This document shows, piece by piece, positions 15,459-64,000 of a stretch of DNA of 64,000 nucleotides (positions are counted from its first letter, which is position 1; each line of letters starts with the position of its first letter). The position numbers and the translations under genes are program-made. The notes beneath the pieces are model-generated. The model was not told the origin of the DNA. It did not search any database and worked only from the letters and a program-made list of their open reading frames with translations. Origin of the DNA: an uncultured archaeon (GTDB lineage: Archaea > Asgardarchaeota > Lokiarchaeia > Sigyniarchaeales > SOKP01); assembly GCA_964508365.1 (NCBI GenBank), contig CAZDTP010000018.1, positions 113-64,112 of the forward strand, read 5' to 3'.

Positions 15459-15974
15459 TTGATTACGATGAAAACTGTAAAAGTTATTGTGTCAGGAGAC
15501 GGAAGAGTAGGAAAAACCTCGTTTTTAAACCGACTCGTCCACAATAGCTTTGATGAAGATAGAGAATTAACCAAAGGTGTTGATTTTTATTCGAAAAACA
15601 TCACGGTCAATGGGATTGAATTTAATTTTATTATGTGGGACTTTGCTGGCCAAGCTCAGTTTAGAAAACTTCTAAATGATTTTGTTGAGGGTTCTATCGC
15701 AGCTGTTATTCTTTTTGACTTAACACGGATTAATACCATTGAAAATGTGTACGATTGGATAAAAACTTTTGAAGCTTTTGGAAACCTTCCTATCTTATTA
15801 ATAGGAACAAAAAGTGATCTTATTCCGTCATCTGATAACCAGGCAATAGACAATTACATCCATGATATTGTAAACGAGTACGAAAATATTATAACTTACC
15901 TTAAAATATCTTCAAAGACGGGAGAAAATATAAAAAACGCTTTTGAAATCTTAATTGGTAATCTATGCCTTTAA
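15459..15974 (+). CDS. Ras/Rab-like small GTPase
   Basis: G1 GDGRVGKTS, G3 WDFAGQ, G4 GTKSDL, G5 SSKTG. The start could be ATG 15468 (MKTVKV...). Confidence 0.8.
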   Translation: MITMKTVKVIVSGDGRVGKTSFLNRLVHNSFDEDRELTKGVDFYSKNITVNGIEFNFIMWDFAGQAQFRKLLNDFVEGSIAAVILFDLTRINTIENVYDWIKTFEAFGNLPILLIGTKSDLIPSSDNQAIDNYIHDIVNEYENIITYLKISSKTGENIKNAFEILIGNLCL

Positions 15975-18600: not shown

Positions 18601-20340
18601 ATGGTTGAAGAATACGATTATCTTTTTAAATCTATTGTGGTAGGAGATGGCGGGGTCGGTAAAACCGCATTGACACTCCGATTTTCGAAAGGATTCTTTA
18701 CTGAAGATTATAAAATGACTATCGGTGTTGATTTTCATGTAAAAACGATCTCGATTGATACTTTTGAAGGACCAATCAAATGTAAGCTCCAACTCTGGGA
18801 TACTGGTGGCCAAGAACGATTTAGCTCTATAAGACCTATGTATTATAGAGGATCGCTCGGTTCAATCCTCGTCTTCGATCTTACGAATTCTGCAAGTTTT
18901 GAACATTTACCACAGTGGATTGAAGAAGTTAGGGCTAACATAAATGCTGAAATACCTGTATTACTTGTTGGCAATAAAAGCGATTTAACTAACCAGAGAG
19001 CAGTTTCAATTGAAGAAATTAATAATTTTACCAGAGATTTCAACTTATATTATATGGAGACGTCTGCTAAGACTGGTGATGGCGTAGGAGATTGCTTTTA
19101 CATTCTCGCTTGCTTGATGATAGGACAAGGAGTTCCTGAACAACTGATAGCTAGCACAACCGTTTACGCTCCAGGACAAATAATTATAGGAAGTGAACCC
19201 ATCGAAAAGCCAGTTGTTCAACCCACAATACCTCAAAACGAGTATTTAGCTCCACCAGTACCAGAACCAATAAATACCTACCCTAAAGAACCCATACCTA
19301 GTTTTGAACCCGAACCCGAACCTGAATATGATGCGCCCCCAGTACCAGAACCTGAATATGATGCACCCCCAGTACCAGAACCTGCTCCTGTGTTTCAACC
19401 TCAAGTTAATCAAGAAATTTTTACGCCCGAGCCAACAGACATAGAATTTAAAACGCCTGATCAGATTATGGCTGAGAAACCTCAGCCGTCAGAACAAGAT
19501 ACTATAACAACTGATGACGAAACGTACAAGCCTAAAACTATACCATTTACATCAAATGTTCCAATCCCAGCACCTACTCCTAAAGAATTCCAAACAGCTA
19601 AAACAGAAAAACCCACGGAGGGTACTTCTTTCCAAACTCCATTCCGTGTCACGAAAAGAGAAGAACCACCTAAACCACGACCCGCCGCTATGACATTTGA
19701 ACCAACTCCCCAGCCACAACAAGAAGTAGCCGTCGAACCGCCATTTTTTCAAGCACCAGTTTCCCAACCTGCAACTTCGGAATCGTTAGTCGACTATATG
19801 CCCCAAACAATAATACCTAAAAAAGAAATGAAAAAATTAGCTAAAGAGAAAAAGAAACTAGGTAGGGAAAAGGCTAAAATCGAAAAAGAAAAGAAAATTT
19901 CTGAAAAACGGGAGAAACAAGGGGAGTTATTTGAAGCGATGAAGACATCAAAAAAAAGTAAAAAAGAAAAAAAGCCTACTGATGAAGGTTTGACACTCGA
20001 ACAAACATCACCTCAAGTATCACCGAGTTCCGAATCAAGTTCATTGTTCCAGACTTTAACTCAAAGAACGGAAGAAATCGCAGAGGAAAGTAGCGCACCC
20101 TTCGCTCCTTTTACCGATACAAAAAGGATTGACGAAGAAGAGAAATCTAAATTACGAATAATTCCTAATATAGCAGACATAGATAGCAATTTCACATCGT
20201 TTACAGCAATTACATCCTCTCATTCAGTTCAAGAAGAAAAGCAAAAAGAGAAGAAAAAAGATCTACTTATTTGCGAACAATGTGGAACAATATTATCTTC
20301 CGATTACGCTTTTTGTAATAAATGCGGTAATAAACTCTAA
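18601..20340 (+). CDS. Rab-like small GTPase with a roughly 400-aa Pro/Glu/Lys-rich disordered extension and a C-terminal zinc ribbon
   Basis: YDYLFK, GDGGVGKT, IGVDF, WDTGGQERF, YYRGS, LVFDLT, GNKSDL, SAKTG (Rab-family-type motifs). The tail ends CEQCGTILSSDYAFCNKCGNKL and has no CaaX or CC prenylation motif. Confidence 0.85.
   Translation: MVEEYDYLFKSIVVGDGGVGKTALTLRFSKGFFTEDYKMTIGVDFHVKTISIDTFEGPIKCKLQLWDTGGQERFSSIRPMYYRGSLGSILVFDLTNSASFEHLPQWIEEVRANINAEIPVLLVGNKSDLTNQRAVSIEEINNFTRDFNLYYMETSAKTGDGVGDCFYILACLMIGQGVPEQLIASTTVYAPGQIIIGSEPIEKPVVQPTIPQNEYLAPPVPEPINTYPKEPIPSFEPEPEPEYDAPPVPEPEYDAPPVPEPAPVFQPQVNQEIFTPEPTDIEFKTPDQIMAEKPQPSEQDTITTDDETYKPKTIPFTSNVPIPAPTPKEFQTAKTEKPTEGTSFQTPFRVTKREEPPKPRPAAMTFEPTPQPQQEVAVEPPFFQAPVSQPATSESLVDYMPQTIIPKKEMKKLAKEKKKLGREKAKIEKEKKISEKREKQGELFEAMKTSKKSKKEKKPTDEGLTLEQTSPQVSPSSESSSLFQTLTQRTEEIAEESSAPFAPFTDTKRIDEEEKSKLRIIPNIADIDSNFTSFTAITSSHSVQEEKQKEKKKDLLICEQCGTILSSDYAFCNKCGNKL
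19318..19377 (+). repeat. Perfect-frame 30-bp tandem duplication (2 units) encoding EPEYDAPPVP
   Basis: gaacctgaatatgatgcRcccccagtacca occurs twice (19318-19347 and 19348-19377) with one substitution. Confidence 0.85.
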
Positions 20341-40055: not shown

Positions 40056-41138
40056 TTAAAAGTCTTGAGTTTCAATAAATTTGTTAATTATTTGTAAAGC
40101 AAGCATTTTGAAGGCATCATTTATATTTTCTCCTGTTTTAGCGGAGGTTTCGATATAAGTCAATGTCAATTTTTGCGCTAATGCCTCTCCCTCGTCGCGA
40201 GACACTACTCTCTCAGACTCTAAATCTATTTTATTTCCCACTAAAATGAGTGCAATATCAGGAGACGCTTTATTAATCTCAATATACCAATTTTTATCTA
40301 TATTTTCGAAACTAGATCGATTAGTTACGTCATAAACTAAAATACCCGCTTCGGCGTTAGCTAAATACGACTGTCTAACGCGTTTAAACTGAGCTTGGCC
40401 GGCTAAATCCCATATTACGAACCTTACAATGCTTTCAAGTTCTTTAAACGTACACTCTTTCTTCATAATAGAAGTTCCAATAGTGGATTTATAATCAGTT
40501 GCAAACTCATTTTCAACATATCTATGCACCATACTCGTTTTACCTACTGCACCGTCACCTCCTAGAATTAACTTAAAGGCATATTCTCCTGATTTGATTT
40601 TAACTTTTTGAAATGTATCCAGTTTTCGCTGAACATTATTAGCACCCCTTTCTGTAATTAATTTAGGTATAACGGGACTTACAGGTCTACCGTCAAAAAT
40701 TCTCGCGATCTTTTCAGCAGCCAAATAAGCGTAAGGGAAAACAGAATCAACACCTGCTATAGCATCCATTACAGTAACTAAAACTGCTTCTGGACCAGAT
40801 TCGCAGAATATGAACCTATAATCTTCTGTATCGAAGGTTCCCGTTCCAAAAGATCCTGAACTAAATTCTTCAGTAATTCTAGTTAAAACTGGTTCTACTA
40901 ACGCACTTACTCCACCGATTATTTCTTCGTCAAGTGATTTTTCCGAAGACCCTACTAAAGAATCCATGATCAATCCATCTCTATTTACTACGAGGGCGGC
41001 AACTAAATTATCACCAATGCTCTGCTTGTACCACTGTAGTAACGCTCCTAACTTTTTTGTATCGACTGACAATCTCTTATAACATCTTTTTTTTGTATTA
41101 AATAGCACTATAATACTAATATGTAAATATTCTTGCAT
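40056..41138 (-). CDS. Roadblock/LC7 (MglB-like) domain fused to a Ras/Rab-like small GTPase domain
   Basis: N-terminal half LVAALVVNRDGLIMDSL...GGVSALVEPV...AVLVTVMD is roadblock-like. C-terminal half has GDGAVGKTS, WDLAGQ, GNKIDL, SAKTG. The true start may be TTG near 41072, which is preceded by a TATA-like ATTTAATA. Confidence 0.75.
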   Translation of the reverse strand: MQEYLHISIIVLFNTKKRCYKRLSVDTKKLGALLQWYKQSIGDNLVAALVVNRDGLIMDSLVGSSEKSLDEEIIGGVSALVEPVLTRITEEFSSGSFGTGTFDTEDYRFIFCESGPEAVLVTVMDAIAGVDSVFPYAYLAAEKIARIFDGRPVSPVIPKLITERGANNVQRKLDTFQKVKIKSGEYAFKLILGGDGAVGKTSMVHRYVENEFATDYKSTIGTSIMKKECTFKELESIVRFVIWDLAGQAQFKRVRQSYLANAEAGILVYDVTNRSSFENIDKNWYIEINKASPDIALILVGNKIDLESERVVSRDEGEALAQKLTLTYIETSAKTGENINDAFKMLALQIINKFIETQDF

Positions 41139-54205: not shown

Positions 54206-54940
54206 TTATTTTATATCAATAAACTTGATCAAACCAAGACCGTCTAAATCATCGATCATTACATCAATCTCCGCCTTTGGAACGCCAGCTTCCTCTGCTA
54301 TATCTGCTACAGTGTGAAAACCATCGGCCAGATGAGCAATCTTATACTGTTCTTTGTTTAAAAAACCCTGAATGATTACTTGGGTAGGAAGACGTTTTGA
54401 AGCCCATACGGGTTTCTGGTCCTGAACTTTTCGTAAATCTTCCTCCGAAAGCACTATACCCTTTTTATTTATTAGTTTCTGAGATTTTAAATAGTCTTTT
54501 TCATAGATTTTTAAAATTGGAATCTTTAGAGGAATTTCTGCTATATGGCCGTTTTTTAACATTTTATCCATAACATTTTCAAATCCTTTGAACATCCTAA
54601 CATCTCCTGACCATTCCTCCATTAGATTTCCATACTTTTCCAAGAATTTGTCGATAATGTCACTTAAGATTTTGTGTGTTATTTTAGCATCATCATTCTT
54701 ATCAGCAGCTGCTGTGCACAAGATTCCTTCCTTAAAAACAAGAAGGAGATAAAATATTTGCATATCAATGATTTTCAATTCACCCGATCCTTTCGAGAAC
54801 TCAACTGAAAAATCTTTTAATGCTGTTAAAAAACCAGATACTAAATCTTGATTAAACTCAATCGTCCCATACTTCCTATGGATTAAACAAATGCCCGTAA
54901 AATTTGATATTAGGTAAACGTTATGAAGGATTGCAATCAA
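54206..54940 (-). CDS. Longin/SNARE-like-fold N-terminal domain fused to a C-terminal winged-helix domain (tentative)
   Basis: Predicted b-b-a-b-b-b-a order: IAILHNVYLISNFTGICLIHRKYG / DLVSGFLTALKDFSVEF / ELKIIDMQIFYLLLVFKEGILCTAAADKNDD / AKITHKILSDIIDKFLEKYG. This parallels sigma-adaptin/longin blocks. The C-terminus KIAHLADGFHTVADIAEEAGVPKAEIDVMIDDLDGLGLIKF is HTH-like. Confidence 0.45.
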   Translation of the reverse strand: MIAILHNVYLISNFTGICLIHRKYGTIEFNQDLVSGFLTALKDFSVEFSKGSGELKIIDMQIFYLLLVFKEGILCTAAADKNDDAKITHKILSDIIDKFLEKYGNLMEEWSGDVRMFKGFENVMDKMLKNGHIAEIPLKIPILKIYEKDYLKSQKLINKKGIVLSEEDLRKVQDQKPVWASKRLPTQVIIQGFLNKEQYKIAHLADGFHTVADIAEEAGVPKAEIDVMIDDLDGLGLIKFIDIK

Positions 54941-58782: not shown

Positions 58783-58938
58783 ATGACGCCCTTAGGTACC
58801 GAATTAAAAGATGAAATTAAAAAAGGTGTTACTCTCCAAAAGGTTGACGAGGAAGATATGAAAAAACGTGAAGAAGAGAAAAAGAAGCGAATGGAAGAAT
58901 TAGAAAAAGTTAAAGAAGCCTTAGGAGCAAAAGATTAA
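58783..58938 (+). CDS. 51-aa WH2 / beta-thymosin-like mini-protein (candidate actin-monomer binder)
   Basis: Own translation: MTPLGTELKDEIKKGVTLQKVDEEDMKKREEEKKKRMEELEKVKEALGAKD. Residues 7-20, LKDEIKKGVTLQKV, fit the WH2 pattern L-x3-I-x2-G-x2-L-[KRQ]-K-[VT]. Same strand as its neighbours. Below the ORF-track cut-off. Confidence 0.45.
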   Translation: MTPLGTELKDEIKKGVTLQKVDEEDMKKREEEKKKRMEELEKVKEALGAKD

Positions 58939-61313: not shown

Positions 61314-61946
61314 TTGATTATAATGAGCCCAATTATAACGCATGAAGATGAATTTGATTTAGCAAGTATGGAAAAAGAATTAGTGACCCAAATAAGGAAA
61401 CTAGCAAAATCTCAGAGTACTTTAATTGATTCTCAAAAAAAATACGCCGAAAATTTAAAAAAAACAACACTTACTCGAGAAATGTTAAACAGAACATTTA
61501 GAGACGTATTGAAACACATGCAGACTCTAGTACGAGAGAAACGATCAAATATTAAAGAGGAAGAAGTGAAAATATTTCAAGATATTATCCACAAAAACGA
61601 TGGATACATAGAAGTTAACAACAAATATATTGATTCGATTAAGGATCTCGCCGTAAAAAAAGACTATTTAGTCGAAAAAAAATATGAATTTGCTTCGGCA
61701 TTAAGCGAAGTAGCAAACAAAAGAAACATAGTAATCAAAAAAGCATTATCTGTTGAGAAAAAAAAAAACGATTTAATCGAAGGAGAAAAAATGAAAATTT
61801 TAGAGTCCGAATTGAACGATTCGCAAAGAGACTTTGATCGTGCTCGAGATATTTTAATGAAAAAATTAGACCAATTTTTACAGATTAAGAACGAAGTAGA
61901 TGAATTGTGGGTAAATTTGAAAAATAGCGTTGACAAAGCAAGCTGA
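61314..61946 (+). CDS. All-helical coiled-coil protein (about 210 aa), hypothetical
   Basis: Heptad-rich K/E sequence in three long helical segments. No enzymatic motif. Confidence 0.55.
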   Translation: MIIMSPIITHEDEFDLASMEKELVTQIRKLAKSQSTLIDSQKKYAENLKKTTLTREMLNRTFRDVLKHMQTLVREKRSNIKEEEVKIFQDIIHKNDGYIEVNNKYIDSIKDLAVKKDYLVEKKYEFASALSEVANKRNIVIKKALSVEKKKNDLIEGEKMKILESELNDSQRDFDRARDILMKKLDQFLQIKNEVDELWVNLKNSVDKAS

Positions 61947-62078
61947 CTTTAAACTTTTTTTTATTTTATTTTTGTTCAAATTATCAAGTAGGAACTTAAA
62001 TTTATTAAATAGTTCAAATATATAATTATTAGAAAATATACTTGGATAAATCGTTATTATTAAACTAGAGAGAATACT

Positions 62079-62528
62079 ATGGCAGAAGAATTCGCAAATT
62101 TCATGAAAGAAACAAAAAAGGCTCCATTAGAAGAAAAACTAAACGCATTTGGAGACATCGTTGAAAGAATGATGTCTGTAATTCTAAGAATACCCGATTT
62201 AGTAGATCAGTCTTTAGCTACTGTAAATCAAAAAATATCTACATTGGAATCACGATTCAATACGTTTAACAATGAAGTATCAGCATTACGAACCAAAGGT
62301 GTTGGGGCATCTTCAGTAATCGCTGCACCTGCTTCCCCAAACAGCGCACCACCTCCTTCTGGAGGTCCACCTGGAGCTCCACCGCCACCGCCTGGAGGTC
62401 CACCTGGAGCGCCGCCTCCACCTCCTGGAAGTCCAGGAGCTGCTCGTCCAGCTAGCCCTGTGAGCTTAAGAGGTGCAATAATGGGCGAATTAAAGCAGCT
62501 ATTTTCTAAGAGAAATCAATCGGGATAG
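62079..62528 (+). CDS. Coiled-coil plus poly-proline plus C-terminal WH2/GAB-like helix protein
   Basis: N-terminal helix/coiled coil (LATVNQKISTLESRFNTFNNEVSALR). Then SGGPPGAPPPPPGGPPGAPPPPPGSPG. C-terminal SLRGAIMGELKQLFSKR. Good ATG context. Confidence 0.7.
   Translation: MAEEFANFMKETKKAPLEEKLNAFGDIVERMMSVILRIPDLVDQSLATVNQKISTLESRFNTFNNEVSALRTKGVGASSVIAAPASPNSAPPPSGGPPGAPPPPPGGPPGAPPPPPGSPGAARPASPVSLRGAIMGELKQLFSKRNQSG
62361..62426 (+). repeat. 33-bp tandem duplication (2 units), GC-rich, encoding GGPPGAPPPPP
   Basis: ggaggtccacctggagcNccNccNccaccNcct occurs twice (62361-62393 and 62394-62426). This is a local GC island in an AT-rich genome, and the differences are synonymous third-position changes. 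Confidence 0.85.
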
Positions 62529-62766
62529 TTAATTTACGAATTATGTTTTTAAAATAAATTCGCTCCATACCTTCCTGATTGAAGAAAAGTTCTCTGTATT
62601 AGTTAAAGTTGGTTTAACTTGAAGACTATTTAGTTTTAGTCGTTTGCTTTTAAGTATTAATCTAATTGTTTTTAAAATCAATTAAAATTAAAACTAAAAA
62701 AAAAATATATTACTATAAGAAGTATTCTGTTTTGATTTGATTTCTTTGGTGTAAGAATTATCAGTA

Positions 62767-64000
62767 AAGACTTAAAAGTAAATAGGGTAAATGTTGCTCA
62801 CGATCTACAAAGACAAATCCTAGAAATTACATCCTTCGTTAGGGTTTTAAATAATTATTATTATGAAAAAGCAAAAATAGAAAAAAAACTAAAACCTCTT
62901 GCACTAAAAAGCTTTAAAGATGAGTTAAAAAACATTGAAAGTGATGAAGATTCGCTTCACAGCGTTCCGCTAGCTATACACTCGTTAAGTGACGATTTAA
63001 ATATCAAGAAAGATTCTTTTAGATTTCCTGATAGCATAATTTTATTTGAGACTTGGATGAATTTAGGTTTTGGAGCGCTTTTTCCTAGATTAGCACTCCA
63101 TTACAAATTTCCTGGATTTTTAAATGGAGAAAAAACGAGGAATATGTTCCAATTCACATATTCAACTTCTAGAGGATTCGGATTCCCAATTTATTTTGGT
63201 CCAGAATTCTATGGGTATATATTAACTATAGGTAAATTTTTAGAATCTTTGTTTAAATGGAGTCACACTATCTGTCACAGAGCAAATCAAGCGATTTATC
63301 TTGTCGGAAAAAAATATGGAATTAAAAGACATCACCCAGGAGAATTTGAATCTGTAATTATATCAGAGTATAAAGACAACGTTTTTAAAGGAATTGACAC
63401 CCTTTTACACGGTTATTACACGCAAGACCCAAAAACATTTGGTGTGTTCTCAAGTTTAGAAAATGCACTTGATAACGTTACATTTTCTTATTCTGTAGGA
63501 GATCACGCAATGTCTGTCGAAAGCGAAAAATCAAAGAAAACAATTAGCGTACCTTTAATTACGCATGATACTATCGTTCGCAAATACAATGTGAATTTTT
63601 ACGACTATTTAAATAACTTATTAGCAACAGAAAAGTTGATAAAAAAAAAGATTATCCACTTTAAACAGCTAAAAAAAGAGTTTATTAATAATTTAAAGAG
63701 AATCGATAGAATTAAATTTAGGATCGATCAATCTAAATCATTTTCAGTTCCAAGTTTGAAAATATCTCAAAAATTTTCTAAAATTCAAGAATTTTCCCTT
63801 CATATTCGACTTATGGAATTAATTATAAAGATGCTATGGACAACTCCCCTTTATACCCATTCGATTCATAAAACTATCGACAACGAAATCAATCTTCAAA
63901 AGCAGAAACAAAATGATTCCACTACTGATTTTAACAACACATCAATAGATTCAATTTTTTTACTTTTTATAAAAAAATTCGAAGTATTAAATTCGTTTTC
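62767..64000 (+). CDS. Large hypothetical protein, runs off the window end; start codon unresolved (possible ATT)
   Basis: The frame is open from the TGA near 62743 to position 64000 (over 400 codons in an AT-rich genome). The first in-frame ATG/GTG/TTG is only at 63067. ATT 62767 is preceded by GGTG with a 5-nt spacer. Absent from the ORF track (no stop). Confidence 0.45.

What the first reader, a model, noticed from the sequence alone, without database searches (positions are those of the whole stretch)
62079..62528. Coiled-coil, GPPGAPPPPP x2 and WH2/VASP-GAB-like tail: candidate profilin/actin-recruiting factor
The 149-aa protein has three parts.
- An N-terminal coiled-coil-like helix.
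- A GC-rich, tandemly duplicated tract encoding GGPPGAPPPPPGGPPGAPPPPPGSPG. This is the type of poly-L-proline run bound by profilin in formin FH1, VASP and WASP.
- A C-terminal SLRGAIMGELKQLFSKR, which resembles the VASP G-actin-binding site (LAAAIAGAKLRKV) and the WH2 pattern. It has one residue fewer on each side of the Gly.

Oligomerisation plus a proline-rich region plus an actin-binding helix is the logic of Ena/VASP and WASP-family elongation and nucleation-promoting factors. The two repeat units differ only at synonymous positions, which argues that the proline tract is under coding selection.
Basis: partly seen in the sequence, partly recalled or inferred. Interest (0 to 1): 0.8.

Follow-up and report, generated by a model that had tools for sequence, protein, structure and literature searches.

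The report
Asgard tether protein with proline linker
This is a small, strongly conserved Asgard-archaeal protein (an oligomerising helix, a flexible proline-rich arm and an invariant end-helix) that sits beside a BAR-like membrane-curvature gene and shares its design with Arf-like GTPases, but its proposed actin/profilin role is unproven and its tail fails the tests for the WH2 actin-binding motif.

Summary
ORF 62079..62528 encodes a 149-aa protein with an N-terminal helix (residues 2-73), a Pro/Gly-rich disordered arm carrying GGPPGAPPPPP twice, and a C-terminal helix. It belongs to an unannotated family found only in Asgard archaea (193 protein clusters, 127 species genomes).

- **Conservation.** The tail RPASPVSLRGAIMGELKQLFxKRK is almost invariant. 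The proline tract is conserved among Loki-type orthologues (a run of at least 5 prolines in 84%). Distant relatives replace it with other linkers.
- **New context.** The upstream gene, adjacent in 76/76 loci, folds as an arfaptin-like BAR domain. The same helix-linker-tail module forms the C-terminal third of about 100 Asgard Arf-like GTPase clusters, mostly without prolines.
- **WH2 test.** The tail scores like shuffled sequence against a WH2 profile, and Pfam and PDB searches give nothing. Published work reports that Loki profilins do not bind VASP polyproline.

My best reading is a multivalent tether in a GTPase/BAR membrane module, whose tail docks on an unidentified conserved surface. Actin remains possible (about 0.15).

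In passing, a 51-aa ORF 3 kb upstream (58783..58938) is a much better WH2 candidate. Its top PDB hit is the WH2 repeats of N-WASP.

The parts
62079..62528 (+). Target gene: 149-aa protein of an Asgard-only family with no Pfam or NCBIfam annotation
   Evidence: ORF. There are 193 homologous clusters, all named 'hypothetical', and 127 species genomes. No Pfam or NCBIfam family matches. Codon-position entropy indicates coding selection.
62082..62297 (+). N-terminal helical part (residues 2-73): short helix 2-14, then a long helix 17-73. Residues 1-45 are almost invariant. Residues 46-73 form a canonical heptad coiled coil with variable sequence.
   Evidence: AF2 pLDDT 90-96. Invariant residues: A2, E4, F5, F8, K14, P16, K20, F24, G25, E29, M32, L36, I38, D40. 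PDB profile hits are coiled coils only, mostly trimeric. The segment from about residue 18 to 75 is homologous to the helix that follows the G domain in Arf-like GTPases.
62298..62456 (+). Disordered Pro/Gly-rich arm (residues 74-126)
   Evidence: pLDDT 42-52. Across 115 homologues the linker is 25-56 residues long, 40% Pro and 25% Gly, with a maximum proline run of at least 5 in 97 of 115. GC is 0.62-0.69.
62361..62426 (+). Tandem duplication of 2 x 33 nt, each unit encoding GGPPGAPPPPP (residues 95-116)
   Evidence: The units differ at 4 third-codon positions only. TRF reports period 33 and 88% matches.
62457..62525 (+). C-terminal docking helix (residues 127-149), core SLRGAIMGELKQLFSKR. 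This is the most conserved element of the superfamily.
   Evidence: Invariant residues: P127, L130, R131, G132, A133, I134, E137, L138, K139, L141, F142. The helix is retained in distant relatives and in GTPase fusions. It is highly specific: in 1.25 Mb of related loci only family members and the GTPases match. It is not a WH2 by profile.
61323..61946 (+). Conserved neighbour gene: 207-aa three-helix protein with a BAR-domain-like (arfaptin-like) predicted fold
   Evidence: It is adjacent and co-oriented in 76/76 loci with a median gap of 131 bp, and the pairing survives where the flanks are rearranged (L080, L058). There are 497 homologous clusters with 83% mean column identity. AF2 gives pLDDT 90.3 and helices 7-71, 79-149 and 154-206. 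Foldseek top hits against the PDB are overwhelmingly BAR domains, with arfaptin at TM 0.63-0.67, probability 1.0 and E 5e-3 to 0.1. No Pfam BAR family matches.
61947..62078 (+). AT-rich spacer between neighbour and target (GC 0.14-0.25), with T-runs at 61955-61962, 61964-67 and 61969-73 directly after the neighbour's stop codon
   Evidence: Read directly from the sequence. Oligo-T runs act as archaeal terminators (general knowledge), so the two genes probably have separate transcripts. This is an inference and was not tested.

Best explanation
The protein is a free-standing copy of the C-terminal 'stalk' module that many Asgard Arf-like GTPases carry. The module is an oligomerising helix, a flexible spacer and an invariant C-terminal docking helix.

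Proposed mechanism:
1. The N-terminal helices (residues 2-73) form a coiled-coil oligomer. The oligomer docks on the arfaptin-like BAR protein encoded next door, or co-assembles with the homologous helix of the GTPases, or both.
2. The roughly 50-residue Pro/Gly arm is a stiff, extended spacer. In Loki-type orthologues it also offers PPPPP runs to any proline-binding module.
3. The invariant tail (RPASPVSLRGAIMGELKQLFxKRK) is the working end. Each arm tip docks by one narrow hydrophobic stripe (I134, L138, L141, F142), flanked by R131, E137 and K139, onto a single conserved surface. That surface is a protein groove or the membrane, at sites where the BAR protein and GTPase act. The result is a multivalent tether or adaptor.

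What is shown: the family, its architecture, its conservation pattern, the gene pairing, the BAR-like fold of the neighbour, and the sharing of the module with GTPases. What is inferred: oligomerisation, contact with the neighbour or the GTPases, and the identity of the tail's target. It is not a detectable homologue of WH2, Ena/VASP or WASP.
For: - **Family and conservation.** The family is confined to Asgard archaea and its termini are nearly invariant.
- **Structure.** AF2 gives helix, disorder, helix.
- **Module sharing.** A profile search of 1.84 billion representatives finds the whole module (query residues 18-151) at the C-terminus of Arf/RagA-like GTPases: P0287 (E 1.5e-12), P0320, P0340 and P0352. 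The N-terminal helix alone is fused to a Ras-family GTPase, P0270.
- **Tail on GTPases.** About 95 of 106 clusters of that GTPase family end in the tail motif: 74 by a strict pattern, the rest judged by eye.
- **Neighbour.** The upstream gene is invariably adjacent (76/76) and is predicted to have a BAR-like fold closest to arfaptin, an Arf/Arl/Rac-binding BAR domain.
- **Specificity of the tail.** The tail motif does not turn up by chance in 1.25 Mb of related DNA.
- **Variable linker.** Linker composition varies across the superfamily while the tail does not, so the tail is the conserved functional element and the linker acts as a spacer.
- **Protein contact.** An invariant Glu and a near-invariant Arg flank the hydrophobic stripe, and the motif occurs internally in a transmembrane protein (P0386) and in a zinc-ribbon protein (P0385). 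Both points favour a specific protein contact.
Against: - There is no experimental or co-folding evidence for any of the proposed contacts. Only monomer predictions were possible.
- The BAR assignment rests on Foldseek E-values of 5e-3 to 0.1 and TM scores up to 0.67, with no sequence-profile support.
- The pairing with the BAR-like gene is seen only in the Loki-type orthologue group. Distant relatives (L083, L085, L086) have unrelated upstream genes.
- Much of the surrounding synteny is plain conservation of housekeeping gene order.
- Neighbourhoods of the GTPase fusions are uninformative.
- The explanation leaves the tail's target open.
Confidence: 0.45

Rival explanations
1. This is the first reader's model: an Ena/VASP- or WASP/WAVE-like actin assembly factor. 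The coiled coil clusters several arms. The PPPPP runs recruit profilin-actin. The adjacent C-terminal helix binds the actin barbed-end cleft as a WH2 helix or the WASP C-helix does, and hands monomers to growing Lokiactin filaments at membranes shaped by the BAR-like neighbour.
For: - The proline tract and the tail are adjacent and both are conserved in Loki-type orthologues.
- The start of the tail, R-x-A-I-M-x-x-L, fits the N-terminal WH2 helix pattern R-x-A-L-L-x-x-I and the WASP C-helix G-A-L-M-x-V-M. Both of those sequences were verified against the PDB.
- Some distant relatives end in [ML][KR][KR], which resembles LKKT.
- The BAR-plus-small-GTPase context is how eukaryotic nucleation-promoting factors are controlled (general knowledge).
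- In L. ossiferum, a Lokiactin co-IP enriched an Arf GTPase (log2 1.34, adjusted p 0.009) and detected two BAR proteins. One of them is 24.73 kDa, the mass of the neighbour family. The identity of that BAR protein with the neighbour family was not verified.
- Asgard actins keep the cleft that gelsolin and WH2-like motifs use (PMC9433394).
Against: - The WH2 profile tests fail.
- Searching the PDB with a profile of the tail returns no actin binder.
- The spacing to any LKKT-like element is wrong, and AF2 draws one continuous helix.
- The tail mostly occurs without prolines: only 6 of 74 GTPase tails follow a run of at least 5 prolines, and many small relatives have non-proline linkers.
- Loki profilin-1 and -2 are reported not to bind VASP polyproline.
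- No acidic or Trp element for Arp2/3 is present, and no EVH1 domain.
- The tag next to L. ossiferum Bar1 (GNAMCCOK_01914, which would be the orthologue only if Bar1 is the 207-aa neighbour, unverified) is absent from the stored part of the co-IP sheet.
Confidence: 0.15
2. Here the tail is simply a membrane-targeting amphipathic helix with a polybasic end. The proline arm plays the part of a 'hypervariable linker'. The tail would then do for these archaeal GTPases and for this small protein what the C-terminal helices of MinD, FtsA and septins do, or the polybasic and lipid anchors of Ras and Rab. The small protein would anchor or co-anchor the BAR-like protein to the membrane.
For: - The motif sits at the extreme C-terminus in nearly all carriers, after a linker of variable composition. 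Carriers include about 95 of 106 GTPases that lack an N-terminal Arf-type amphipathic helix.
- The tail has a basic end (KRK) and a hydrophobic stripe.
- The neighbour has a BAR-like fold.
- Characterised Asgard Arf GTPases do use terminal amphipathic helices to bind membranes.
Against: - The hydrophobic moment is only about 0.30, half that of FtsA's membrane-targeting sequence.
- An invariant Glu and a near-invariant Arg lie at or within the apolar stripe. Near-identity over 20 residues is unusual for lipid-binding helices.
- The motif is internal in P0386, which already has transmembrane helices, and in P0385.
Confidence: 0.25
3. There is no specific function for the tract. The Pro/Gly run is a low-complexity expansion in an otherwise ordinary small coiled-coil protein, and the resemblance to eukaryotic modules is compositional chance.
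For: - Linker length and composition drift widely across the superfamily.
- Short-motif resemblances are cheap. I compared the tail with about ten motif types.
Against: - Proline and glycine content is maintained in an AT-rich genome (GC 0.32) across 115 orthologues, with only synonymous differences between the two repeat units.
- Both termini are under strong purifying selection.
- The module is reused on GTPases.
Confidence: 0.08

Closest known systems
Ena/VASP proteins
   Same: Both have an oligomerising coiled coil, G/P-rich runs of the GPPPPP type, and a short basic amphipathic helix close to the proline region. Both present several flexible arms.
   Different: The order is reversed: the coiled coil is N-terminal here and C-terminal in VASP. 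There is no EVH1 domain, no Pfam VASP_tetra or WH2 match, and the tail scores at shuffle level against a WH2 HMM that includes the VASP GAB. My impression that the tail resembles the VASP FAB rests on memory only. That stretch found no PDB entry to verify it against.
WASP/WAVE VCA module and MIM/MTSS1 (I-BAR + Pro-rich + C-terminal WH2)
   Same: Both have a proline-rich region directly upstream of a C-terminal helix, and both associate with a BAR-type protein and small GTPases. The tail's R-x-A-I-M-x-x-L resembles the WH2 pattern R-x-A-L-L-x-x-I and the WASP C-helix G-A-L-M-x-V-M.
   Different: There is no LKKT/V element at the right spacing, no acidic or Trp tail, and no profile-level similarity. 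The BAR-like protein is a separate gene, and by fold it is closest to arfaptin rather than to an I-BAR.
C-terminal stalk of Asgard Arf-like GTPases (P0287 family, annotated 'ADP-ribosylation factor-like protein')
   Same: This is true homology. The helix, linker and tail align over query residues 18-151 (E 1.5e-12 to 3e-6), and the tail consensus is the same.
   Different: The window protein lacks the G domain and the N-terminal extension. It has its own extra N-terminal 17 residues. Its linker is far richer in proline than most GTPase linkers, which have a median proline fraction of about 0.04. I found no description of this stalk in the Asgard Arf papers I searched by keyword.
Arfaptin and other BAR domains (for the neighbour gene)
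   Same: The size is about 200 residues, with three long antiparallel helices. Foldseek top hits are arfaptin 1/2, SNX1/5, FAM92A, Lsp1/Pil1, BIN2 and the IRSp53 IMD.
   Different: No Pfam BAR family matches and sequence identity is 10-15%. Dimerisation, curvature and lipid binding were not tested.
Terminal membrane-targeting helices (MinD, FtsA, septin C-terminal extension)
   Same: All are short, basic amphipathic helices at the extreme C-terminus after a flexible linker. The septin layout of GTPase, coiled coil and amphipathic helix parallels that of the GTPase fusions (general knowledge).
   Different: The hydrophobic moment is low. Charged residues are invariant. The sequence is far more conserved than is usual for such helices.

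Membership tests
WH2 domain (Pfam PF02205) | Match to the family profile | tested here: not met
   Pfam hmmscan of the tail, and of the proline tract plus tail, reports no WH2 at E<=10. HMMER's speed filters may hide very weak matches. A full-sensitivity search with my own HMM, built from 7 PDB-verified WH2 motifs, gives a median of -1.2 bits for 39 tails against -1.3 for 1950 shuffles. Only 2.6% of tails exceed the 95th percentile of the shuffles.
WH2 domain (Pfam PF02205) | N-terminal amphipathic helix with the hydrophobic pattern (R)xALLxxI | tested here: inconclusive
   R131-G-A-I-M-G-E-L138 fits the pattern in register with WASP, N-WASP and WIP. The pattern carries little information, and I compared the tail with about ten motif types.
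WH2 domain (Pfam PF02205) | LKKT/V-type motif a few residues after a helix-breaking Gly | tested here: not met
   Loki-type tails read ELKQLFAKRK, predicted as one continuous helix. Only some distant relatives have [ML][KR][KR], and it is offset by one residue.
WH2 domain (Pfam PF02205) | Binds G-actin in the cleft between subdomains 1 and 3 | not testable with these tools
   No multimer prediction or biochemistry was available.
Ena/VASP | N-terminal EVH1 domain | tested here: not met
   No Pfam domain of any kind matches the 149-aa protein.
Ena/VASP | Central proline-rich region with GPPPPP-type profilin sites | tested here: met
   The sequence carries GGPPGAPPPPP twice. A run of at least 5 prolines is present in 97 of 115 orthologues. 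This is a sequence-level result only. Binding was not tested, and Loki profilin-1 and -2 are reported not to bind VASP polyproline.
Ena/VASP | EVH2 region: GAB, FAB and a C-terminal tetramerisation coiled coil | tested here: not met
   There is no WH2 or VASP_tetra Pfam match. The coiled coil is N-terminal. PDB profile hits are generic coiled coils, mostly trimeric.
WASP/WAVE nucleation-promoting factors | VCA: WH2, connector helix and an acidic tail with a conserved Trp | tested here: not met
   The protein ends ...FSKRNQSG. The end is basic, with no acidic stretch or Trp. The weak hit to BRICK1 of the WAVE complex (E 0.44) is at coiled-coil noise level.
Stalk module of Asgard Arf-like GTPases (unnamed) | Homologous helix, linker and C-terminal [ILV]..EL[KR].[LV]F.[KR] tail | tested here: met
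   The family profile hits P0287 (E 1.5e-12, query 18-151), P0320, P0340 and P0352. Their G domains pass the Pfam Arf and Gtr1_RagA cut-offs. The tail is present in 74 of 106 clusters by a strict pattern and in about 95 by eye.
BAR domain (for the neighbour gene, 61323..61946) | Three-helix antiparallel bundle of about 200 residues with fold similarity to solved BAR domains | tested here: met
   AF2 gives pLDDT 90.3 and three helices of 53-71 residues. Most of the Foldseek top hits against the PDB are BAR domains, with arfaptin-2 at TM 0.63-0.67 and probability 1.0. E-values are only 5e-3 to 0.1.
BAR domain (for the neighbour gene, 61323..61946) | Sequence-profile membership, crescent-shaped dimer, membrane binding | tested here: inconclusive
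Membrane-targeting amphipathic helix | Terminal helix with a strong hydrophobic moment, a broad apolar face and basic flanks | tested here: inconclusive
   The helix is terminal and has a basic end. The hydrophobic moment is 0.30-0.32 and D is 1.3-1.6. The stripe is narrow, with an invariant E137 and a near-invariant R131 beside it.

The most novel reading that the evidence does not exclude
The proline-arm-plus-tail would be an archaeal counterpart, analogue or precursor, of the eukaryotic 'proline-rich region + WH2-type helix' actin-assembly module. It would be clustered by a coiled coil and wired to an arfaptin-like BAR protein and Arf-like GTPases. That would make it the first actin elongation- or nucleation-promoting factor outside eukaryotes. 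It might work together with the WH2-like 51-aa mini-protein encoded 3 kb upstream.
Probability: 0.12. Interest if true: 0.9.

Novelty: new variant of a known kind. Interest (0 to 1): 0.55.

Why it matters
Only profilins and gelsolins are established regulators of Asgard actin. How Asgard small GTPases and BAR-like proteins connect to membranes and to the cytoskeleton is an open question.

This finding defines a widespread, unannotated, Asgard-only module: a helix, a disordered arm and an invariant docking helix. The module occurs in two forms. One is a small protein paired with a BAR-like gene. The other is the C-terminal stalk of about 100 Arf-like GTPase clusters.

Identifying the surface that the invariant tail binds would give a direct handle on how these archaea organise GTPase-driven membrane or cytoskeletal assemblies. 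That bears on how eukaryotic trafficking and actin-control logic arose. The tail is a 20-residue peptide, so the question can be tested directly with peptide binding, liposome and actin assays.

Tried and rejected
- **Family libraries.** Pfam and NCBIfam scans of the target, the neighbour and the downstream gene gave no family.
- **PDB sequence searches.** The full family profile (A1) found only coiled coils, including BRICK1 at E 0.44, which I rejected as noise. Tail profiles A3 and A4 found only chance hits: c-Kit helix C, designed coils, and twinfilin-2 over 13 residues at E 0.16.
- **Comparisons by eye.** I compared the tail with ESCRT-III MIM1 (same i, i+4, i+7 leucine spacing but all charges inverted), the RPEL motif (RP...EL spacing wrong), the MinD 'LKRLF' tail, calmodulin-binding patterns and the PIP box. 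I rejected all of these or left them as untestable leads.
- **VASP FAB.** I recalled a resemblance to the VASP FAB, but that stretch found no PDB entry, so the recalled sequence could not be verified.
- **Hydrophobic moment.** The calculation did not discriminate between hypotheses.
- **L. ossiferum co-IP.** I tried to tie the neighbour to the published Lokiactin co-IP. 'Bar1' is 24.73 kDa, like the neighbour family, but no L. ossiferum accession appeared in any search. The mapping is unverified. The co-IP 'Arf' is 38.1 kDa, which does not match the 46-49 kDa stalk-bearing GTPases.
- **Other neighbourhoods.** Neighbourhoods of distant relatives and of the GTPase fusions showed no recurrent partner.
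- **Rest of the window.** No actin, profilin or gelsolin gene was found among the ORFs scanned.
- **Window GTPase.** The window's own 579-aa Ras GTPase does not carry the module.
Full report
**1. The observation**

The ORF at 62079..62528 (+) exists as described and encodes 149 aa. The window is AT-rich (GC 0.324), but GC reaches 0.62-0.69 across 62300-62450. Two head-to-tail 33-nt units (62361-62393 and 62394-62426) both encode GGPPGAPPPPP. They differ at four positions, all third-codon and synonymous. No other ORF of at least 100 aa in the window has a proline run of four or more.

AlphaFold2 on a 36-sequence alignment gives helices 2-14 and 17-73 at pLDDT 90-96. Residues 74-126 are disordered. 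A C-terminal helix spans 127-148 at pLDDT about 70-77.

**2. The family**

The protein has 193 homologous clusters, all unnamed or 'hypothetical' and all without Pfam domains. Relatives occur in 127 species-level genomes, essentially all Promethearchaeota/Lokiarchaeia MAGs. Third-codon-position entropy far exceeds that of positions 1 and 2 in both the N-terminal part and the tail, so the protein is under purifying selection.

The alignment shows four zones:
- an almost invariant N-terminus (residues 1-45);
- a coiled-coil segment with variable sequence but canonical heptads (46-73);
- a Pro/Gly arm of variable length;
- a nearly invariant tail, RPASPVSLRGAIMGELKQLF-x-KRK.

Over 115 homologues the arm is 25-56 residues long, 40% Pro and 25% Gly. 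It contains a run of at least 5 prolines in 97 of them.

**3. The wider superfamily changes the picture**

I searched 1.84 billion representative proteins with a profile of the family. The search found many divergent small proteins of the same layout. NCBI names place them in Helarchaeota, Freyarchaeota, Njordarchaeota and other Promethearchaeota. [quoted passage not shown] The tail consensus is [SN][LIV]R.[AS][ILV][MNQ].EL[KR].[LV]F.[KR][RMKL][KR], with the Glu invariant. The linker, however, is often Thr/Ser/Ala/Gln-rich or charged. By my reading of the sequences, only about a third carry a PPPPP run.

The same search found fusions:
- P0287, P0320, P0340 and P0352 (399-464 aa) have an N-terminal extension and a G domain that passes the Pfam Arf and Gtr1/RagA cut-offs. 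After the G domain comes the whole module, aligned to query residues 18-151.
- P0270 is a Ras-family GTPase followed by the family's N-terminal helix.
- P0386 carries the proline tract and tail internally, ahead of transmembrane helices.
- P0385 carries the tail after a zinc ribbon.

A follow-up search showed that this stalk-bearing GTPase family comprises 106 clusters, several annotated 'ADP-ribosylation factor-like protein'. Of these, 74 end in the tail by a strict pattern and about 20 more do so by eye. Only 6 of the 74 have a run of at least 5 prolines in the linker, and the typical proline fraction is 0.02-0.07.

The tail motif is specific. In 1.25 Mb of related loci it matches only family members and these GTPases. 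The conserved functional unit is therefore helix + spacer + tail. The polyproline is a lineage-specific elaboration of the spacer.

**4. The neighbour**

The upstream gene (61323..61946, 207 aa) is adjacent and co-oriented in 76 of 76 loci, with a median gap of 131 bp. The pairing holds even where insertions or rearrangements break the surrounding gene order, as in L080 and L058. Adjacent locus tags in Loki_b31 confirm it.

The neighbour is even more conserved than the target, with 497 clusters and 83% mean column identity. AlphaFold2 predicts three long antiparallel helices at pLDDT 90.3. Foldseek against the PDB returns mostly BAR domains, led by arfaptin-1 and -2 (TM up to 0.63-0.67, probability 1.0). 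Other hits include SNX1/5, FAM92A, Lsp1/Pil1, BIN2, the IRSp53 IMD and amphiphysin. E-values are modest (5e-3 to 0.1) and no Pfam BAR family matches, so I call it BAR-like.

T-runs directly after its stop codon suggest that the two genes have separate transcripts (an inference). Distant relatives of the target do not have this neighbour. Most of the remaining synteny consists of housekeeping genes: CutA, a nucleotidyltransferase, two radical-SAM enzymes, a GNAT and Pelota.

**5. Testing the WH2/VASP reading**

- Pfam reports no WH2 for the tail, or for the proline tract plus tail, at E<=10.
- Two tail profiles searched against all PDB sequences return no actin-binding protein.
- I verified the WH2 sequences of WASP, N-WASP (two motifs), WIP, WAVE1, MIM and the VASP GAB against PDB entries and built an HMM from them. 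Scored at full sensitivity, 39 tails have a median of -1.2 bits, against -1.3 for 1950 composition-matched shuffles.
- A partial resemblance remains. R131-x-A-I-M-x-x-L138 fits the WH2 helix R-x-A-L-L-x-x-I and the WASP C-helix G-A-L-M-x-V-M. The pattern is low in information, and I compared the tail with about ten motif types.
- No EVH1, acidic/Trp or VASP-tetramerisation element exists.
- Loki profilin-1 and -2 are reported not to bind VASP polyproline, whereas some Heimdall and Thor profilins bind it weakly (PMC8410842). Native peptides have not been tested.

Membership in the WH2, Ena/VASP and WASP families is therefore not met. 'Works like' remains possible but unsupported.

**6. Membrane anchor or protein-docking peptide?**

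For a membrane role:
- the motif is at the extreme C-terminus and has a basic end;
- it sits on GTPases that lack an Arf-type N-terminal amphipathic helix;
- the neighbour is BAR-like;
- characterised Asgard Arfs use terminal amphipathic helices to bind membranes.

Against a membrane role:
- the hydrophobic moment is only about 0.30;
- the hydrophobic stripe is narrow (I134, L138, L141, F142), with an invariant Glu and a near-invariant Arg beside it;
- the motif is internal in a transmembrane protein;
- near-identity over 20 residues is more typical of a peptide that fits a protein groove.

I cannot decide between these with the tools available.

**7. Published experiments**

A Lokiactin co-IP from L. 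ossiferum (bioRxiv 10.1101/2025.11.30.690169) enriched profilin, five gelsolin-homology proteins and an 'Arf' GTPase (38.1 kDa, log2 1.34, adjusted p 0.009). It also detected two BAR proteins below significance. Bar1 is 24.73 kDa, with log2 0.94 and adjusted p 0.18.

The neighbour family weighs 24.0-25.0 kDa, so Bar1 may be its orthologue. No L. ossiferum accession appeared in any of my searches, so the mapping is unverified. The 38.1-kDa Arf does not match the 46-49-kDa stalk-bearing GTPases. I treat this as a lead only.

**8. Verdict**

The finding is a real, conserved, unannotated Asgard protein. I found no description of the family or of the GTPase stalk in the literature I could search.

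The best-supported reading (about 0.45) is a multivalent tether or adaptor belonging to a BAR-like/Arf-like-GTPase module, with the invariant tail docking on a conserved surface that is not yet identified. Rival readings are a plain membrane-targeting helix (about 0.25), a VASP/WASP-like actin/profilin recruiter (about 0.15) and a functionless low-complexity expansion (about 0.08).

**9. A better WH2 candidate in the same window**

A small ORF at 58783..58938 (+) lies between the GNAT and Pelota genes. It encodes MTPLGTELKDEIKKGVTLQKVDEEDMKK..., 51 aa, and is conserved in 40 related loci. Residues L7, I11, K12, K13, G14, L17 and K19 are invariant, and the ORF shows coding-type codon-position entropy.

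Its motif EL-x-x-EIKKGV-x-LQKV matches the full WH2 pattern, LL-x-x-I-x-x-G-x-x-LKKV:
- It scores 8.2 bits against the same WH2 HMM, and its homologues score 3-10.7. Only 2 of 1000 shuffles reach 8.2.
- A profile of the family searched against the whole PDB returns as its top hit the N-WASP tandem-WH2 construct 3m3n (E 8.5e-4), aligned at each of that construct's three WH2 motifs.
- Pfam's WH2 model does not report it at E<=10, so this remains a candidate.

It is nonetheless a markedly stronger candidate than the tail of the target. The only WH2-like motifs described so far in Asgard archaea lie inside gelsolins.

Noticed in passing
window 58783..58938 (+) (listed from GTG 58777): A 51-aa ORF, conserved in 40 related loci, with the motif EL..EIKKGV.LQKV followed by a charged helix. 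This is a full WH2/beta-thymosin-like pattern. It scores 8.2 bits against a WH2 HMM built from PDB-verified motifs, and only 2 of 1000 shuffles reach that score. The family profile's top hit in the whole PDB is the N-WASP tandem-WH2 construct 3m3n (E 8.5e-4). Pfam's WH2 model does not report it. In the literature I searched, no stand-alone WH2-like protein is described for Asgard archaea.
   Followed up: partly
proteins P0287, P0320, P0340, P0352 and the 106-cluster family; loci L081, L087-L089: Asgard Arf/RagA-like GTPases of about 400-430 aa with an N-terminal extension of about 110-135 residues (weak helix-hairpin-helix signal in P0320). They carry a C-terminal stalk of coiled coil, linker and the conserved tail. 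I found no description of this stalk in the Asgard Arf papers I searched by keyword.
   Followed up: partly
window 18601..20340 (+), 15459..15974 (+), 40056..41138 (-): The window holds three Ras-family small GTPases. The 579-aa one has a disordered Pro/Glu-rich region of about 380 residues, with the repeat PEPEYDAPPVPEP, and ends in a zinc ribbon. It does not carry the helix-linker-tail module.
   Followed up: partly
window 63057..64000 (+, runs off the end); L056:8657-10411, L017:8534-10261, L058:5799-7550: A 575-584-aa protein with no Pfam or NCBIfam match lies directly downstream of the target in 54 loci. In related loci it is followed by a conserved run of four further proteins: 366-391 aa; 318-326 aa with zinc-ribbon signals; 379 aa; and 431-438 aa. 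The first, third and fourth have no family match.
   Followed up: partly
window 54206..54940 (-): A 244-aa protein with a sub-threshold Longin domain match (E 1e-4, 22.6 bits against a cut-off of 26.2) plus a winged-helix signal. It is conserved at the edge of the syntenic block in 28 loci. Longin and roadblock domains are typical platforms for regulating GTPases.
   Followed up: no
L001 (DATKTW010000134.1); L010, L012, L015, L017, L036, L058, L065 and others: The closest relative of the window region (96% protein identity over a 62-kb contig) is deposited as 'Candidatus Nanopelagicaceae bacterium', which is almost certainly a mis-binned archaeal contig. Several loci labelled Odin-, Thor-, Hod- or Hermodarchaeota share 55-77% identity and the full gene order with Lokiarchaeial loci, so those labels look unreliable.
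   Followed up: no
window 62266..62421 (-): A 51-aa antisense ORF lies inside the GC-rich proline tract. It is a mechanical by-product of the CCN/GGN codon runs and not a gene. It gives a weak spurious match to the family profile.
   Followed up: yes
window 61955..61973 and 62546..62550: Oligo-T runs (T8, T4, T5) lie directly after the neighbour's stop codon, and a T5 run lies after the target's stop. They resemble archaeal terminators and suggest that the two paired genes are transcribed separately.
   Followed up: no
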